Shown here piece after piece: positions 56,409 through 63,749 of a DNA stretch of 64,000 bases. This stretch comes from Escherichia coli. Its GTDB lineage: Bacteria; Pseudomonadota; Gammaproteobacteria; Enterobacterales; Enterobacteriaceae. The stretch is from the NCBI RefSeq assembly GCF_003334305.1, contig NZ_QOWS01000017.1; one strand, written 5' to 3'. The notes under the pieces were generated by a model. The model saw only the letters and a list, made by a program, of their open reading frames with translations. It ran no database searches and was not told where the DNA came from. Position 1 is the stretch's first letter, and the number at the start of each line of letters is the position of its first letter. The position numbers and the translations under genes are program-made.

Positions 56409-57995
56409 TCAGTTTTTCAGCCGCCGCCAGAACGTCGTCCGGCTTATGCCTAAATAATTCGCCGCTGCTGTTTTATCGCCTTTAAATTTCTCCAGTGCCT
56501 GTTGTGGTGTCAGTAAGCGTGGAGCGGGAATTTTCGCCGACTCGCGCGCCAGCTCCGGCAGTAGCAGTTGCATAAACTGCGGCGTTAAATCCGGCGTCGG
56601 TTCCACACTTAAAAACAGCGCCAGTCGTTCCATCATATTGCGCAGTTCACGAATATTGCCTGGCCAGTCGTAGTGCACCAGCACGGTTTCGCTTGCCTGT
56701 AATCCCTGGCGTAATGCGGCAGAAAACGGGGCGGAGAGCGCCGCCAGAGACACTTTCAAAAAGCTTTCCGCCAGCGGAAGAATATCCGCCACCCGCTCGC
56801 GCAGTGGTGGCAATTGCAGACGCAAAATACTCAGCCGATAAAACAGATCACGGCGAAACTGCCCTTGCCGCATATCTTCTTCCAGATTGCAGTGAGTGGC
56901 GCTAATGACCCGCACATCCACCGGAACAGGCTGATGCCCGCCGACGCGAGTAACCTCTTTTTCTTCCAGCACCCGTAACAGGCGAGTCTGCAAAGGTAGC
57001 GGCATTTCGCCAATCTCATCCAGAAACAGCGTACCGCCGTGGGCAATTTCGAACAGCCCGGCGCGACCTCCGCGTCGCGAGCCGGTAAACGCCCCTTCCT
57101 CATAGCCAAACAGCTCCGCTTCCAGCAGCGATTCGGCTATCGCCCCGCAGTTGACGGCAACAAACGGATGCGACTTTTTGCCCTGTCGCGCATCGTGGCG
57201 GGCAAAATATTCCCGATGAATCGCCTGGGCCGCCAGCTCTTTGCCCGTCCCCGTTTCCCCTTCAATCAACACCGCCGCACTGGAGCGGGCATACAGCAAA
57301 ATAGTCTGCCGTACTTGTTCCATCTGTGGTGATTGACCGAGCATATCGCCCAGCACGTAACGAGTTCTCAGGGCGTTGCGGGTGGCATCGTGAGTGTTAT
57401 GGCGTAACGACATGCGCGTCATATCCAGCGCATCGCTGAACGCCTGGCGCACGGTGACGGCGGAATAGATAAAAATTCCGGTCATTCCGGCTTCTTCTGC
57501 CAGATCGGTAATCAGCCCCGCACCGACCACCGCTTCGGTGCCGTTAGCTTTCAGCTCATTAATCTGCCCGCGCGCGTCTTCTTCGGTAATGTAGCTACGT
57601 TGATCGAGGCGCAGATTAAAGGTTTTTTGAAACGCCACCAGTGCCGGAATAGTTTCCTGATAAGTGACAACGCCGATAGAAGAGGTGAGCTTTCCGGCTT
57701 TTGCCAGTGCCTGTAACACATCGTAGCCGCTCGGTTTAATCAAAATAACTGGCACTGACAGGCGGCTTTTCAGGTACGCGCCGTTAGAGCCAGCGGCGAT
57801 GACGGCGTCGCAGCGTTCGTTTGCCAGTTTCTTGCGGATATAGGTCACTGCTTTTTCAAAGCCAAGCTGGATAGGGGTAATGTTCGCCAGGTGATCAAAC
57901 TCGAGGCTGATATCGCGAAACAGCTCGAACAGGCGCGTTACAGATACCGTCCAGATAACCGGTTTGTCGTCATTAAGCCGTGGTGGATGTGCCAT
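56409..57995 (-). CDS. prpR: PrpR sigma-54-dependent activator of the propionate operon, 528 aa
   Basis: AAA+ sigma-54 activator core ([21 protein letters not shown]-like) and C-terminal helix-turn-helix; start at [10 protein letters not shown]. Confidence 0.9.
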
Positions 57996-58171
57996 AGCGC
58001 ACCGCAAAGTTAAGAAACCGAATATTGGGTTTAGTCTTGTTTCATAATTGTTGCAATGAAACGCGGTGAAACATTGCCTGAAACGTTAACTGAAACGCAT
58101 ATTTGCGGATTAGTTCATGACTTTATTTATAACAAATTGAAATTAAACATTTAATTTTATTCAGTTAATTG

Positions 58172-58187
58172 TGGCACACCCCTTGCT
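58172..58187 (+). promoter_or_regulatory. Sigma-54 (-24/-12) promoter of prpBCDE
   Basis: TGGCAC-acccc-TTGCT, matching the TGGCAC-N5-TTGCW consensus, 47 bp upstream of the prpB start. Confidence 0.75.
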
Positions 58188-58233
58188 TTGTCTTTATCAA
58201 CGCAAGTAACAAGTTGATAACAAAGGATGGGCT

Positions 58234-59124
58234 ATGTCTCTACACTCTCCAGGTAAAGCGTTTCGCGCTGCACTGTCTAAAGAAAATCCATTGCAGATTG
58301 TTGGCACCATCAACGCTAATCATGCGCTGTTGGCGCAGCGTGCCGGATATCAGGCAATTTATCTCTCCGGCGGTGGCGTGGCGGCAGGTTCGCTGGGGCT
58401 GCCCGATCTCGGTATTTCTACCCTTGATGATGTGCTGACCGACATTCGCCGTATCACCGACGTTTGTTCGCTGCCGCTGCTGGTGGATGCGGATATCGGT
58501 TTTGGTTCTTCGGCCTTTAACGTGGCGCGTACGGTGAAATCGATGATTAAAGCCGGTGCGGCAGGATTGCATATTGAAGATCAGGTTGGTACGAAACGCT
58601 GCGGTCATCGCCCGAACAAAGCGATCGTCTCGAAAGAGGAGATGGTGGATCGGATCCGCGCGGCGGTGGATGCGAAAACCGATCCTGATTTTGTGATCAT
58701 GGCGCGCACCGATGCGCTGGCGGTAGAGGGGCTGGATGCGGCGATCGAGCGTGCACAGGCCTATGTTGAAGCGGGTGCCGAGATGTTGTTCCCGGAGGCG
58801 ATTACCGAACTCGCCATGTACCGCCAGTTTGCCGATGCGGTTCAGGTGCCAATCCTCGCCAACATTACCGAATTTGGTGCCACGCCGCTGTTTACCACCG
58901 ACGAATTACGCAGCGCCCATGTCGCAATGGCGCTGTACCCGCTTTCAGCGTTCCGCGCCATGAACCGCGCCGCTGAACATGTCTACAACGTCCTGCGCCA
59001 GGAAGGCACGCAGAAAAGCGTCATCGACACCATGCAGACCCGCAACGAACTGTACGAAAGCATCAACTACTACCAGTACGAAGAGAAGCTCGACGACCTG
59101 TTTGCCCGTAGCCAGGTGAAATAA
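58234..59124 (+). CDS. prpB: PrpB 2-methylisocitrate lyase, 296 aa
   Basis: Isocitrate lyase/PEP mutase family (KRCGHRP motif); first gene after the sigma-54 promoter. Confidence 0.9.
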
Positions 59125-59168
59125 AACACAACGAAAAATATCTCGACCCTACAAATGACGAGGACAAT

Positions 59169-60338
59169 ATGAGCGACACAACGATCCTGCAAAACAGTAC
59201 CCATGTCATTAAACCGAAAAAATCGGTGGCACTTTCCGGCTTTCCGGCGGGCAATACGGCGCTCTGCACCGTGGGTAAAAGTGGCAATGACCTGCATTAC
59301 CGTGGCTACGATATTCTTGATCTGGCGGAACATTGCGAATTTGAAGAAGTGGCTCATCTGCTGATCCACGGCAAACTGCCGACCCGTGACGAACTCGCCG
59401 CTTACAAAACGAAACTGAAAGCCCTGCGTGGTTTACCGGCTAACGTGCGTACCGTGCTGGAAGCCTTACCGGCGGCGTCACACCCGATGGATGTTATGCG
59501 CACCGGTGTTTCCGCGCTCGGCTGCACGCTGCCAGAAAAAGAGGGGCATACCGTCTCTGGCGCGCGGGATATTGCCGACAAACTGCTGGCGTCGCTTAGC
59601 TCGATTCTCCTTTATTGGTATCACTACAGCCACAACGGCGAACGCATCCAACCGGAAACCGATGACGACTCCATCGGCGGTCACTTCCTGCATCTGCTGC
59701 ACGGCGAAAAGCCATCGCAAAGCTGGGAAAAGGCGATGCATATCTCGCTGGTGCTGTACGCCGAACACGAGTTTAACGCCTCCACCTTTACCAGTCGGGT
59801 GATTGCGGGCACCGGCTCTGATATGTATTCCGCGATTATTGGCGCGATTGGCGCACTGCGCGGGCCAAAACACGGCGGGGCGAATGAAGTGTCGCTGGAG
59901 ATCCAGCAACGCTACGAAACGCCGGACGAAGCCGAAGCAGATATCCGCAAGCGCGTGGAAAACAAAGAAGTGGTCATTGGTTTTGGTCATCCGGTTTACA
60001 CCATCGCTGACCCGCGCCACCAGGTGATTAAACGTGTGGCGAAGCAGCTCTCGCAGGAAGGCGGCTCGCTGAAGATGTACAACATCGCCGATCGCCTGGA
60101 AACGGTGATGTGGGAGAGCAAAAAGATGTTCCCCAATCTCGACTGGTTCTCTGCTGTTTCCTACAACATGATGGGCGTTCCCACCGAGATGTTCACACCA
60201 CTGTTTGTTATCGCCCGCGTCACCGGCTGGGCGGCGCACATTATCGAACAACGTCAGGACAACAAAATTATCCGTCCTTCCGCCAATTATGTTGGACCGG
60301 AAGACCGCCCGTTTGTCGCGCTGGATAAGCGCCAGTAA
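59169..60338 (+). CDS. prpC: PrpC 2-methylcitrate synthase, 389 aa
   Basis: Citrate synthase family; second gene of the prp operon. Confidence 0.9.
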
Positions 60339-60371
60339 ACCTCTACGAATAACAATAAGGAAACGTACCCA

Positions 60372-61823
60372 ATGTCAGCTCAAATCAACAACATCCGCCC
60401 GGAATTTGATCGTGAAATCGTTGATATCGTCGATTACGTGATGAACTACGAAATCAGCTCTAAAGTGGCCTACGACACCGCACATTACTGCCTGCTCGAC
60501 ACGCTCGGCTGCGGTCTGGAAGCTCTCGAATACCCGGCCTGTAAAAAACTGCTGGGGCCAATTGTTCCCGGCACCGTCGTACCCAACGGCGTGCGCGTCC
60601 CCGGAACTCAGTTCCAGCTCGACCCCGTCCAGGCGGCATTTAACATCGGCGCGATGATCCGCTGGCTCGATTTCAACGATACCTGGCTGGCGGCGGAGTG
60701 GGGCCATCCTTCCGACAACCTCGGCGGCATTCTGGCAACGGCGGACTGGCTTTCGCGCAACGCGGTCGCCAGCGGCAAAGCGCCGTTGACCATGAAACAG
60801 GTGCTGACCGCAATGATCAAAGCCCATGAAATTCAGGGCTGCATCGCGCTGGAAAACTCCTTTAACCGCGTCGGCCTCGACCACGTTCTGTTAGTGAAAG
60901 TGGCTTCCACCGCCGTGGTCGCCGAAATGCTCGGCCTGACCCGCGAGGAAATTCTCAACGCCGTTTCGCTGGCGTGGGTGGACGGTCAGTCGCTGCGCAC
61001 CTATCGCCATGCGCCGAACACCGGCACGCGTAAATCCTGGGCGGCGGGCGATGCCACTTCCCGCGCGGTACGTCTGGCACTGATGGCGAAAACGGGCGAA
61101 ATGGGTTACCCGTCAGCCCTGACTGCGCCGGTGTGGGGCTTCTACGACGTCTCCTTTAAAGGTGAATCGTTCCGCTTCCAGCGCCCGTACGGTTCCTACG
61201 TTATGGAAAATGTGCTGTTCAAAATCTCCTTCCCGGCGGAGTTCCACTCCCAGACGGCAGTTGAAGCAGCGATGACGCTCTATGAACAGATGCAGGCAGC
61301 AGGCAAAACGGCGGCGGATATCGAAAAAGTGACCATTCGCACCCACGAAGCCTGTATTCGCATCATCGACAAAAAAGGACCGCTCAATAACCCGGCAGAC
61401 CGCGATCACTGCATTCAGTACATGGTGGCGATCCCGCTGCTGTTCGGGCGCTTAACGGCGGCAGATTACGAGGACAACGTGGCGCAAGATAAACGTATCG
61501 ACGCCCTGCGCGAGAAGATCAATTGCTTTGAAGATCCGGCGTTTACCGCTGACTACCACGACCCGGAAAAACGCGCCATCGCCAATGCCATTACCCTTGA
61601 GTTCACCGACGGCACACGATTTGAAGAAGTGGTGGTGGAGTACCCCATTGGTCATGCTCGCCGCCGTCAGGATGGTATTCCGAAACTGGTCGATAAATTC
61701 AAAATCAATCTCGCGCGCCAGTTCCCGACTCGCCAACAGCAGCGCATTCTGGAGGTTTCTCTCGACAGAACTCGCCTGGAACAGATGCCGGTCAATGAGT
61801 ATCTCGACCTGTACGTCATTTAA
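60372..61823 (+). CDS. prpD: PrpD 2-methylcitrate dehydratase, 483 aa
   Basis: MmgE/PrpD family protein of expected length in operon position. Confidence 0.9.
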
Positions 61824-61862
61824 GCAAACAGCGGTAAGGCGTAAGTTCAACAGGAGAGCATT

Positions 61863-63749
61863 ATGTCTTTTAGCGAATTTTATCAGCGTTCGATTAACGA
61901 ACCGGAGCAGTTCTGGGCCGAGCAGGCCCGGCGTATTGACTGGCAGACGCCCTTTACGCAAACGCTCGATCACAGCAATCCGCCGTTTGCCCGTTGGTTT
62001 TGTGAAGGCCGAACCAACTTGTGCCACAACGCTATCGACCGCTGGCTGGAGAAACAACCAGAGGCGCTGGCGCTGATTGCCGTCTCTTCGGAAACAGAAG
62101 AAGAGCGCACCTTTACCTTTCGTCAGCTTCATGACGAAGTAAACGCGGTGGCGTCAATGCTGCGCTCGCTGGGCGTGCAGCGTGGCGATCGGGTGCTGGT
62201 GTATATGCCGATGATTGCCGAAGCGCATATTACTCTGCTGGCCTGCGCGCGCATTGGCGCTATTCATTCGGTGGTGTTTGGGGGATTTGCCTCGCACAGC
62301 GTGGCGGCGCGAATTGATGATGCTAAACCGGTGCTGATTGTCTCGGCTGATGCCGGAGCGCGCGGTGGCAAAATCATTCCCTATAAAAAATTGCTCGACG
62401 ATGCGATAAGTCAGGCGCAGCACCAGCCACGCCATGTTTTGCTGGTGGATCGCGGGCTGGCGAAAATGGCACGCGTCAGCGGGCGGGATGTCGATTTCGC
62501 GTCGTTGCGCCATCAACACATCGGCGCGCGGGTACCGGTGGCGTGGCTGGAATCCAACGAAACCTCCTGCATTCTCTACACCTCCGGCACGACCGGCAAA
62601 CCTAAAGGCGTGCAGCGTGACGTCGGCGGATATGCGGTGGCGCTGGCGACCTCGATGGACACCATTTTTGGCGGCAAAGCGGGCGGTGTGTTCTTTTGTG
62701 CTTCGGATATCGGCTGGGTGGTGGGGCATTCGTATATCGTCTACGCGCCGCTGCTGGCGGGGATGGCGACTATCGTTTACGAAGGATTACCGACCTGGCC
62801 GGACTGCGGCGTGTGGTGGAAAATCGTCGAGAAATATCAGGTGAGCCGGATGTTCTCAGCGCCGACCGCCATTCGCGTGCTGAAAAAATTCCCTACCGCT
62901 GAAATTCGCAAACACGATCTCTCGTCGCTGGAAGTGCTCTATCTGGCTGGAGAACCGCTGGACGAGCCGACCGCCAGTTGGGTGAGCAATACGCTGGATG
63001 TGCCGGTCATCGACAACTACTGGCAGACCGAATCCGGCTGGCCGATTATGGCGATTGCTCGCGGTCTGGACGACAGGCCGACGCGTCTGGGAAGCCCCGG
63101 CGTGCCGATGTATGGCTATAACGTGCAGTTGCTTAATGAAGTCACCGGCGAACCGTGTGGCGTCAACGAGAAAGGGATGCTGGTGGTGGAAGGGCCGCTG
63201 CCGCCGGGGTGTATTCAGACCATCTGGGGCGATGACGACCGCTTTGTGAAGACGTACTGGTCGCTGTTTTCCCGTCCGGTGTACGCCACCTTTGACTGGG
63301 GCATCCGCGATGCTGACGGTTATCACTTTATTCTCGGGCGCACTGACGATGTGATTAACGTTGCCGGGCATCGGCTGGGCACGCGCGAGATTGAAGAGAG
63401 TATTTCCAGTCATCCGGGCGTTGCCGAAGTGGCGGTGGTTGGGGTGAAAGATGCGCTGAAAGGGCAGGTGGCGGTAGCGTTTGTCATTCCGAAAGAGAGC
63501 GACAGTCTGGAAGATCGTGATGTGGCGCATTCGCAAGAGAAGGCGATTATGGCGCTGGTGGACAGCCAGATTGGCAACTTTGGCCGCCCGGCGCACGTCT
63601 GGTTTGTCTCGCAATTGCCAAAAACGCGATCCGGAAAAATGCTGCGCCGCACGATCCAGGCGATTTGCGAAGGACGCGATCCTGGAGATCTGACGACCAT
63701 TGATGATCCAGCGTCGTTGGATCAGATCCGCCAGGCGATGGAAGAGTAA
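61863..63749 (+). CDS. prpE: PrpE propionyl-CoA synthetase, 628 aa
   Basis: Acyl-CoA synthetase AMP-binding motif (YTSGTTGKPKG); last gene of prpBCDE. Confidence 0.9.
   Translation: MSFSEFYQRSINEPEQFWAEQARRIDWQTPFTQTLDHSNPPFARWFCEGRTNLCHNAIDRWLEKQPEALALIAVSSETEEERTFTFRQLHDEVNAVASMLRSLGVQRGDRVLVYMPMIAEAHITLLACARIGAIHSVVFGGFASHSVAARIDDAKPVLIVSADAGARGGKIIPYKKLLDDAISQAQHQPRHVLLVDRGLAKMARVSGRDVDFASLRHQHIGARVPVAWLESNETSCILYTSGTTGKPKGVQRDVGGYAVALATSMDTIFGGKAGGVFFCASDIGWVVGHSYIVYAPLLAGMATIVYEGLPTWPDCGVWWKIVEKYQVSRMFSAPTAIRVLKKFPTAEIRKHDLSSLEVLYLAGEPLDEPTASWVSNTLDVPVIDNYWQTESGWPIMAIARGLDDRPTRLGSPGVPMYGYNVQLLNEVTGEPCGVNEKGMLVVEGPLPPGCIQTIWGDDDRFVKTYWSLFSRPVYATFDWGIRDADGYHFILGRTDDVINVAGHRLGTREIEESISSHPGVAEVAVVGVKDALKGQVAVAFVIPKESDSLEDRDVAHSQEKAIMALVDSQIGNFGRPAHVWFVSQLPKTRSGKMLRRTIQAICEGRDPGDLTTIDDPASLDQIRQAMEE

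What the first reader, a model, noticed from the sequence alone, without database searches (positions are those of the whole stretch)
58008..58233. prpR–prpB divergent region carries a textbook sigma-54 promoter
TGGCAC-N5-TTGCT at 58172-58187 matches the -24/-12 consensus, upstream of prpB and adjacent to the sigma-54 activator gene prpR. This is an internal check that the annotation frame and orientation of the prp genes are correct.
Basis: partly seen in the sequence, partly recalled or inferred. Interest (0 to 1): 0.2.

Follow-up and report, generated by a model that had tools for sequence, protein, structure and literature searches.

The report
Known sigma-54 promoter of prpBCDE
This is the well-known sigma-54 promoter that switches on the E. 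coli propionate-breakdown operon prpBCDE under control of the neighbouring activator PrpR; it is real and conserved, and it is ordinary.

Summary
TGGCAC-ACCCC-TTGCT lies at 58172-58187 (+), 46 nt before the prpB ATG (58234). It is the only exact match to TGGCAC-N5-TTGCW in the 64-kb window.

The window is E. coli chromosome. The 238-bp prpR-prpB spacer differs from K-12 MG1655 at six positions. None of them falls in the -24/-12 elements or in the enhancer half-sites.

The same 17-mer, GTGGCACACCCCTTGCT, is a published sigma-54 ChIP-seq site in K-12. It is also an in vitro RpoN-holoenzyme gSELEX peak, and prpB is listed among known sigma-54-dependent E. coli promoters.

I compared 80 prpB loci from other species. 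Every locus with a divergent PrpR next to prpB has a -24/-12 motif a short distance upstream of prpB. Two loci without PrpR have none.

A cluster of TGAAAC/GTTTCA half-sites, the PrpR enhancer, lies 102-159 bp upstream of the predicted start. An AT-rich stretch with IHF-like sites sits between the enhancer and the promoter.

PrpR has the PrpR_N, sigma-54 AAA+ (GAFTGS) and HTH_8 domains.

The feature is already known, so interest is low. One gap remains: I found no experimentally mapped prpB transcription start in the papers I could read.

The parts
56409..57995 (-). prpR, the sigma-54 enhancer-binding activator (528 aa, ATG at 57995)
   Evidence: NCBIfam PrpR equivalogs score 1008 and 882 bits, above their cut-offs. 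Pfam finds PrpR_N at 36-196, Sigma54_activat at 219-393 and HTH_8 at 498-527. Motifs present are GAFTGS at 301, Walker A GETGTGK at 246 and Walker B LFLDE at 323. The CAT of the start codon at 57993-57995 is invariant in 12 Enterobacteriaceae.
58038..58097 (.). PrpR enhancer (UAS). It consists of a distal inverted pair, TGTTTCAT (58038-58045) and ATGAAACG (58056-58063), plus direct TGAAAC repeats at 58067, 58079 and 58091. It spans -159 to -102 from the predicted start.
   Evidence: Repeats found. The half-site matches the published PrpR enhancer consensus CGTTTCATGAAACG (PMC4987338 Table 1). TGTTTCAT and TGAAACGTTAaCTG are invariant blocks in alignment A1. Half-sites occur at 14.2 per kb in 66 prpR-prpB spacers against 0.69 per kb in the rest of those loci, nearly all of them between -102 and -250 from the predicted start.
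58116..58170 (.). AT-rich spacer (70-90% A+T) with IHF-like sites at 58130-58142 (-), 58141-58153 (+) and 58144-58156 (-). This is the presumed DNA-bending region between enhancer and promoter.
   Evidence: A+T profile. WATCAANNNNTTR matches with one mismatch. The IHF requirement in Salmonella is known only from a paper title and a review (Palacios and Escalante-Semerena 2000, cited in PMC5566544). Assigning the site to this stretch is inference.
58171..58187 (+). Sigma-54 core promoter GTGGCACACCCCTTGCT (-24 GG at 58173-58174, -12 GC at 58185-58186)
   Evidence: Identical to K-12 and to ChIP-seq site OS01. TGGCA and TTGCT are invariant in alignment A1. An equivalent motif is present in every locus where PrpR lies divergently adjacent to prpB.
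58198..58198 (+). Predicted transcription start, +/- 2 nt (motif centre 58179 + 19)
   Evidence: Uses the rule applied in PMC4591121. It gives a 36-nt leader, the same distance listed there for prpB, and places GG at -25/-24 and GC at -13/-12. Not mapped experimentally in any paper I could read.
58198..58233 (+). Predicted 36-nt leader with Shine-Dalgarno AAGGA at 58223-58227. It contains a perfect IHF-consensus match at 58207-58219 (-).
   Evidence: The RNA has no significant fold (z = 0.87).
58234..63749 (+). prpBCDE operon: prpB 58234-59124, prpC 59169-60338, prpD 60372-61823, prpE 61863-63749
   Evidence: ORFs. NCBIfam equivalogs are all above cut-off. RefSeq annotation of an identical region agrees.

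Best explanation
The element at 58171-58187 is the sigma-54 (RpoN) -24/-12 core promoter of the E. coli propionate catabolic operon prpBCDE.

RNA polymerase carrying sigma-54 sits on it as a closed, inactive complex. PrpR is encoded divergently next door. It binds the cluster of TGAAAC/GTTTCA half-sites 102-159 bp upstream. When its N-terminal domain senses 2-methylcitrate, which is made from propionate by PrpE and PrpC, its AAA+ domain contacts sigma-54 through the GAFTGS loop. ATP hydrolysis then opens the promoter. The AT-rich, IHF-like stretch in between is presumed to bend the DNA so that the enhancer-bound activator reaches the polymerase. Transcription should start near 58198, giving a 36-nt leader before the prpB ATG.

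Shown here: the motif, its rank in the window, its conservation, the enhancer half-site cluster, and the activator's domains.

Taken from the literature: sigma-54 binding in vivo and in vitro, rpoN dependence, 2-methylcitrate as the signal, and the IHF and CRP requirements.

Inferred: the exact start position and which AT-rich site IHF uses.
For: The motif is present and unique in the window.

The leave-one-out position weight matrix scores it at 15.6 bits, second of about 128,000 positions.

No sigma-70-like promoter was found in 57900-58300.

Gene identities are confirmed. PrpR has the PrpR_N, Sigma54_activat and HTH_8 domains with GAFTGS, Walker A and Walker B motifs.

The spacer differs from K-12 at six positions, all outside the -24/-12 elements and the half-sites.

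Published evidence on the identical K-12 sequence:
- ChIP-seq peak OS01, fold-above-threshold score 17, motif GTGGCACACCCCTTGCT, 36 bp from predicted start to prpB (PMC4591121).
- gSELEX RpoN-holoenzyme peak between prpR and prpB (PMC8743547).
- prpB up 2.2-fold on sigma-54 overexpression and down 2.8-fold in an rpoN deletion, with the promoter at -62..-45, which equals window 58172-58189 (PMC2831329).

For the Salmonella homologue, prpBCDE is 45-fold higher in wild type than in an rpoN deletion, and a ChIP-chip site TGGCATAGCCTTTGCTTT was found (PMC3844500).

Across 80 prpB loci from other species, every locus with a divergent PrpR adjacent to prpB has a motif of 12.4-21.2 bits on the prpB strand. 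Its end lies 37-89 nt before the ATG, except in two Providencia loci at about 188 nt. Pseudomonas rhizoryzae and Ignatzschineria lack PrpR and score only 5.4 and 2.3 bits.

TGGCA and TTGCT are invariant in 12 Enterobacteriaceae while part of the spacer and the flanks vary.

Enhancer half-sites are about 20-fold enriched in the spacers and lie at -102 to -250.
Against: No experimentally mapped prpB transcription start was found in the papers I could read. EcoCyc listed the E. coli promoter as 'predicted' rather than 'confirmed' in 2015 (PMC4591121 Table 1).

The primary papers were not held. These are Palacios and Escalante-Semerena 2000 and 2004, Lee et al. 2005, and Horswill and Escalante-Semerena 1997. 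The IHF, CRP and 2-methylcitrate steps therefore rest on secondary citations.

The rpoN effects on E. coli prpB in uninduced cells are modest, at 2-3-fold.

The exact-consensus match alone is not rare at window scale (8 of 100 shuffles).

The loci compared are phylogenetically related, so the count of conserved sites overstates the number of independent events.
Confidence: 0.95

Rival explanations
1. Sigma-54 holoenzyme binds the site, but the site is not the main prpB promoter. Under this reading prpBCDE is mainly transcribed from an unrecognised sigma-70 promoter, and the sigma-54 site is a poised or inert binding site of the kind that is widespread in E. coli.
For: Bonocora et al. stress that many sigma-54 sites found by ChIP-seq may never give productive transcription (PMC4591121). 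The E. coli promoter was only 'predicted' in EcoCyc at that time. I found no mapped start.
Against: No sigma-70-like promoter was found in 57900-58300. prpB mRNA falls in an rpoN deletion in E. coli, and the Salmonella operon is 45-fold rpoN-dependent. The motif co-occurs with PrpR across genera and is absent where PrpR is absent. A dedicated sigma-54 activator is encoded next door.
Confidence: 0.03
2. The motif is a chance match to the consensus with no function.
For: 8 of 100 shuffled windows contain at least one exact match. Another site in the window, 23184-23200, scores slightly higher on the matrix yet lies antisense inside a gene.
Against: The -24/-12 bases are invariant across 12 Enterobacteriaceae within a variable spacer. 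An equivalent motif is present from Morganellaceae to Oxalobacteraceae. Published ChIP-seq and gSELEX data show binding to the identical sequence.
Confidence: 0.01

Closest known systems
E. coli K-12 prpBp (sigma-54 promoter of prpBCDE, b0331-b0335), as listed in RegulonDB/EcoCyc and mapped by sigma-54 ChIP-seq (site OS01, PMC4591121)
   Same: The 17-mer GTGGCACACCCCTTGCT is identical. The 238-bp spacer length is the same, as are the distance to the prpB ATG and the enhancer half-sites.
   Different: There are six single-base differences in the spacer: 58127, 58129, 58162, 58165, 58166 and 58206. Five lie in the AT-rich stretch and one in the leader. The window matches strains HS and W rather than K-12.
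Salmonella enterica prpR-prpBCDE control region (PrpR, sigma-54 and IHF dependent; Palacios and Escalante-Semerena 2000, 2004)
   Same: The divergent layout is the same. The -24/-12 motif is at the homologous position (TGGCATAGCCTTTGCT). The distal inverted half-site pair is conserved, and the predicted leader is 36-38 nt.
   Different: Salmonella and Citrobacter carry the proximal palindrome GTTTCATGAAAC. In E. coli and E. albertii it is replaced by direct TGAAAC repeats. The Salmonella spacer is about 36 bp longer.
Other ligand-sensing bEBP/sigma-54 catabolic promoters of E. coli, such as atoDAEB (AtoC). Its core promoter CTGGCACTCCCCTTGCT is nearly the same.
   Same: It has a -24/-12 core with a C-rich spacer, an upstream enhancer and short-chain fatty acid catabolism (OS21).
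   Different: The activator is a two-component response regulator, AtoC, and the enhancer sequence is different.

Membership tests
Sigma-54 (RpoN) dependent -24/-12 promoter | GG and GC doublets exactly one helical turn apart (GG-N10-GC) within TGGCAC-N5-TTGCW | tested here: met
   TGGCACACCCCTTGCT at 58172-58187 with no mismatches.
Sigma-54 (RpoN) dependent -24/-12 promoter | Scores like experimentally bound sites on a matrix built from them | tested here: met
   15.6 bits with prpB left out. This is mid-range among the 42 ChIP-seq intergenic sites (range 8.7-21.6) and second best in the window.
Sigma-54 (RpoN) dependent -24/-12 promoter | Bound by sigma-54 holoenzyme | not testable with these tools
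   Literature on the identical K-12 sequence: ChIP-seq fold-above-threshold score 17 (PMC4591121) and a gSELEX peak (PMC8743547). Identity to K-12 shown.
Sigma-54 (RpoN) dependent -24/-12 promoter | Transcription depends on rpoN | not testable with these tools
   Literature: E. coli prpB is 2.8-fold lower in an rpoN deletion (PMC2831329). Salmonella prpBCDE is 45-fold higher in wild type than in an rpoN deletion (PMC3844500).
Sigma-54 (RpoN) dependent -24/-12 promoter | Transcription start about 11-13 nt downstream of the GC | not tested
   Predicted at 58198. No mapped start was found in the papers I could read.
Sigma-54 (RpoN) dependent -24/-12 promoter | Cognate bEBP with an AAA+ sigma-54 interaction domain and a GAFTGA loop | tested here: met
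   PrpR has Sigma54_activat (E = 2e-65), GAFTGS at 301-306, and Walker A and B motifs. NCBIfam PrpR equivalog matched.
Sigma-54 (RpoN) dependent -24/-12 promoter | Enhancer (UAS) about 100 bp or more upstream, carrying the activator's binding motif | tested here: met
   Five TGAAAC/GTTTCA half-sites at -159 to -102, matching the published PrpR consensus. They are enriched about 20-fold across 66 spacers. Actual PrpR binding was not tested.
Sigma-54 (RpoN) dependent -24/-12 promoter | No competing sigma-70 -35/-10 promoter | tested here: met
   0 sigma-70-like sites in 57900-58300. This was a simple consensus scan only.
Enterobacterial prp locus (prpR divergent from prpBCDE, 2-methylcitrate cycle) | Gene content and order: prpR (-), then prpB, prpC, prpD, prpE (+) | tested here: met
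   All five match NCBIfam equivalogs above cut-off. RefSeq annotation of an identical region agrees.

The most novel reading that the evidence does not exclude
Two flanking features of the region are not explained, although the core promoter itself is known.

(a) E. coli and E. albertii have replaced the proximal PrpR palindrome GTTTCATGAAAC, which is the published enhancer consensus, with three direct TGAAAC repeats spaced 12 bp apart. The distal inverted pair, 17-18 bp start to start, is the element conserved from Enterobacteriaceae to Morganellaceae.

(b) A perfect IHF consensus lies inside the predicted leader at +10..+22. A 78% identical copy of the same 18-mer lies at -68..-51, so IHF-like sites bracket the closed complex.

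Either feature could mean that enhancer geometry or DNA bending at this promoter differs from the Salmonella model. Either could also account for the reported roughly 3-fold weaker E. coli pPro system.
Probability: 0.2. Interest if true: 0.25.

Novelty: already known. Interest (0 to 1): 0.06.

Why it matters
For the scan, the finding serves mainly as a positive control. It confirms that the window is E. coli chromosome and that the prp genes are correctly framed and oriented. It also shows that a reader without tools can recognise a genuine sigma-54 promoter. Biologically, this promoter is the basis of the propionate-inducible pPro expression vectors and of propionate biosensors. Nothing about the core promoter is new.

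Tried and rejected
- The primary papers could not be read because they are not in the library. These were PMC94363, PMC1070369, PMC1287719 and PMC178778.
- Two literature searches for a mapped prpB start (primer extension, RACE, TSS) gave nothing relevant.
- A CRP consensus scan (TGTGA-N6-TCACA) gave no convincing site in the spacer. The best match has three mismatches and overlaps the -24 element. Window-wide matches are at chance level. The published CRP site, said to overlap the PrpR operator (PMC9452892), could not be placed.
- Folding the predicted leader RNA gave no significant structure (z = 0.87). The 8-bp inverted repeat TTATCAAC/GTTGATAA (58194-58201 and 58213-58220) is therefore not supported as an RNA hairpin, and half of it lies upstream of the predicted start.
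- Consensus matches with two mismatches are uninformative: 38 found against 41 expected.
- I looked for PrpR in the 3 kb upstream of the Janthinobacterium prpB genes and found none. I did not pursue this further.

Full report
**The observation**

The sequence at 58172-58187 (+) reads TGGCAC ACCCC TTGCT. GG is at 58173-58174 and GC at 58185-58186. It is the only exact match to TGGCAC-N5-TTGCW on either strand of the window. The expected number is 0.08, and 8 of 100 dinucleotide-preserving shuffles gave at least one match. Matches with up to two mismatches are at chance level, with 38 found against 41.5 expected. The bare consensus match is therefore only mildly improbable.

I built a position weight matrix from the 41 other intergenic sigma-54 ChIP-seq sites of Bonocora et al. 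2015 (PMC4591121 Table 1), leaving prpB out. It scores the 17-mer at 58171-58187 at 15.6 bits. That is second of about 128,000 positions in the window and in the middle of the range for validated sites.

**What surrounds it**

The window is E. coli chromosome. Positions 57800-58400 are 100% identical to strains HS, W and others, and the region is present in 5,220 of 5,426 complete genomes, where it is annotated prpR | prpB.

RefSeq annotation of strain HS gives yahO, prpR (-), then prpB, prpC, prpD, prpE (+), then codB. The five window ORFs all exceed the NCBIfam equivalog cut-offs for PrpR, PrpB, PrpC, PrpD and PrpE.

PrpR has PrpR_N (36-196), Sigma54_activat (219-393) and HTH_8 (498-527) domains. 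It also has GAFTGS at 301-306, Walker A GETGTGK and Walker B LFLDE.

The annotated start, conserved in the alignment, is the ATG at 57995. The spacer is therefore 57996-58233, 238 bp. No sigma-70-like promoter and no terminator-like site was found in 57900-58300.

**Anatomy of the spacer**

I take the start as motif centre + 19, the rule used in PMC4591121. This puts the predicted start at 58198, with GG at -25/-24, GC at -13/-12 and a 36-nt leader. That is the same 36 bp listed for prpB in that paper.

Upstream lie one GTTTCA (58039) and four TGAAAC hexamers (58057, 58067, 58079, 58091), spanning -159 to -102. The whole window has only 39 such hexamers, or 0.61 per kb. They match the published PrpR enhancer consensus CGTTTCATGAAACG (Palacios and Escalante-Semerena 2004, as tabulated in PMC4987338).

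Between the enhancer and the promoter, 58116-58170 is 70-90% A+T. It contains three one-mismatch matches to the IHF consensus WATCAANNNNTTR.

**Published evidence on this exact sequence**

The spacer differs from K-12 MG1655 at six positions: 58127, 58129, 58162, 58165, 58166 and 58206. None lies in the -24/-12 elements or the half-sites.

- In K-12, GTGGCACACCCCTTGCT is sigma-54 ChIP-seq site OS01, with a fold-above-threshold score of 17. EcoCyc status at the time was 'predicted'.
- Genomic SELEX with reconstituted RpoN holoenzyme gives a peak between prpR and prpB (PMC8743547).
[quoted passage not shown] Its promoter TGGCACACCCCTTGCTTT is at -62..-45, which equals window 58172-58189. prpB mRNA is 2.2-fold up on sigma-54 overexpression and 2.8-fold down in an rpoN deletion (PMC2831329).
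- In Salmonella, prpBCDE is 45-fold higher in wild type than in an rpoN deletion when a promiscuous activator is expressed. ChIP-chip finds TGGCATAGCCTTTGCTTT upstream of prpB (PMC3844500).
- Reviews cite the requirement for PrpR, sigma-54 and IHF, 2-methylcitrate as co-activator, and CRP dependence (PMC5566544; PMC9452892).

**Comparative evidence produced here**

A scan of one genome per species with PrpB returned 80 loci. They include Escherichia, Citrobacter, Kluyvera, Pluralibacter, Salmonella, Pseudocitrobacter and Shimwellia. They also include Xenorhabdus, Photorhabdus, Morganella and Providencia, several Oxalobacteraceae, a Burkholderiaceae, a Pseudomonas and an Ignatzschineria.

In every locus with a divergent PrpR N-terminal domain adjacent to prpB, the best matrix hit on the prpB strand is 12.4-21.2 bits. 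Its end lies 37-89 nt before the ATG, apart from two Providencia loci at about 188 nt. The Pseudomonas rhizoryzae and Ignatzschineria loci have no PrpR and reach only 5.4 and 2.3 bits. For scale, only nine positions in the 64-kb window reach 12.4 bits. That is about 0.02 expected per 250-nt single strand.

In an alignment of 12 Enterobacteriaceae spacers, four blocks are invariant against a mean column identity of 64%:
- the prpR start codon;
- TGTTTCAT;
- TGAAACGTTAaCTG (a single variable position, lower case, within the block);
- TGGCA and TTGCT.

Across 66 spacers the TGAAAC/GTTTCA half-sites occur at 14.2 per kb, against 0.69 per kb in the rest of the same loci. Nearly all lie at -102 to -250 from the predicted start. 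The loci are related, so these counts overstate the number of independent events. Even so, the pattern spans two proteobacterial classes.

**Mechanism**

Sigma-54 holoenzyme forms a closed complex on 58171-58187. PrpR is bound at 58038-58097 and activated by 2-methylcitrate. It reaches the polymerase by DNA looping across the AT-rich, IHF-like stretch. It then uses ATP hydrolysis to open the promoter, and transcription of prpBCDE starts near 58198.

The motif, the enhancer cluster, the activator domains and the conservation are shown here. Binding, rpoN dependence, the inducer, IHF and CRP come from the literature. The start position and the choice of IHF site are inferred.

**Verdict**

Both the observation and the interpretation hold. 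This is the known prpBp promoter, so novelty is nil and interest is low. I could not read the primary papers and found no mapped start.

**Side observations**

- The E. coli and E. albertii enhancer has direct repeats where Salmonella and Citrobacter have the consensus palindrome.
- A perfect IHF consensus lies inside the leader at 58207-58219.
- The leader RNA is unstructured.
- The top-scoring sigma-54-like motif in the window, 23184-23200, lies antisense inside hyxA.

Noticed in passing
window 23184-23200 (+): CTGGCAAATTTTCTGCA is the best sigma-54 matrix hit in the whole window at 15.9 bits, slightly above the prpB promoter. It lies antisense inside hyxA (22801-23562, -), in the hyx island found in only about 1,900 of 5,426 E. 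coli genomes. I saw no match to any intragenic site in the parts of the K-12 ChIP-seq tables I read.
   Followed up: partly
window 58038-58097; L003, L018 and others at the homologous position: E. coli and E. albertii lack the proximal PrpR palindrome GTTTCATGAAAC present in Citrobacter, Salmonella and Pluralibacter. In its place they have direct TGAAAC repeats at 58067, 58079 and 58091. The distal inverted pair, 17-18 nt start to start, is the element conserved as far as the Morganellaceae.
   Followed up: partly
window 58207-58219 (-) and 58130-58147: A perfect IHF consensus, TATCAACTTGTTA, lies inside the predicted prpB leader at +10..+22. It is one of only four exact matches in 64 kb. A 78% identical direct copy of the same 18-mer (TAACAAnTTGA...) lies at -68..-51. 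The block TAACAAGTTGATAACAA is conserved in Escherichia, Citrobacter and Kluyvera.
   Followed up: partly
L038, L039, L043, L046-L048, L050-L052, L054, L055 (Janthinobacterium), about 64 nt before prpB: A strong sigma-54 motif, CTGGCACGGCATTTGCA at 20.1 bits, precedes prpB. No PrpR homologue is encoded in the upstream flank held for these loci (up to 3 kb). In Massilia (L077) PrpR lies about 2.4 kb upstream, so other genes may intervene.
   Followed up: partly
L064, L078 (Providencia), about 188 nt before prpB: The best sigma-54 motif lies much further from the prpB ATG than in all other loci. This implies either a long leader or a different start codon.
   Followed up: no
window 57996-58233 compared with NC_000913.3 348444-348681: There are six substitutions relative to K-12 MG1655. 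Five lie in the AT-rich stretch between enhancer and promoter (58127, 58129, 58162, 58165, 58166) and one in the leader (58206).
   Followed up: yes
window 57800-58400 searched against E. coli genomes: Nine of the 5,224 matching places for the prpR-prpB region are on records labelled as plasmids, and 206 of 5,426 complete genomes have no match.
   Followed up: no
window 57900-58300 (-): No sigma-70 consensus-like promoter was found for prpR itself. Reviews describe PprpR as a CRP-dependent promoter that overlaps PprpB. I could not place a CRP site by consensus.
   Followed up: partly
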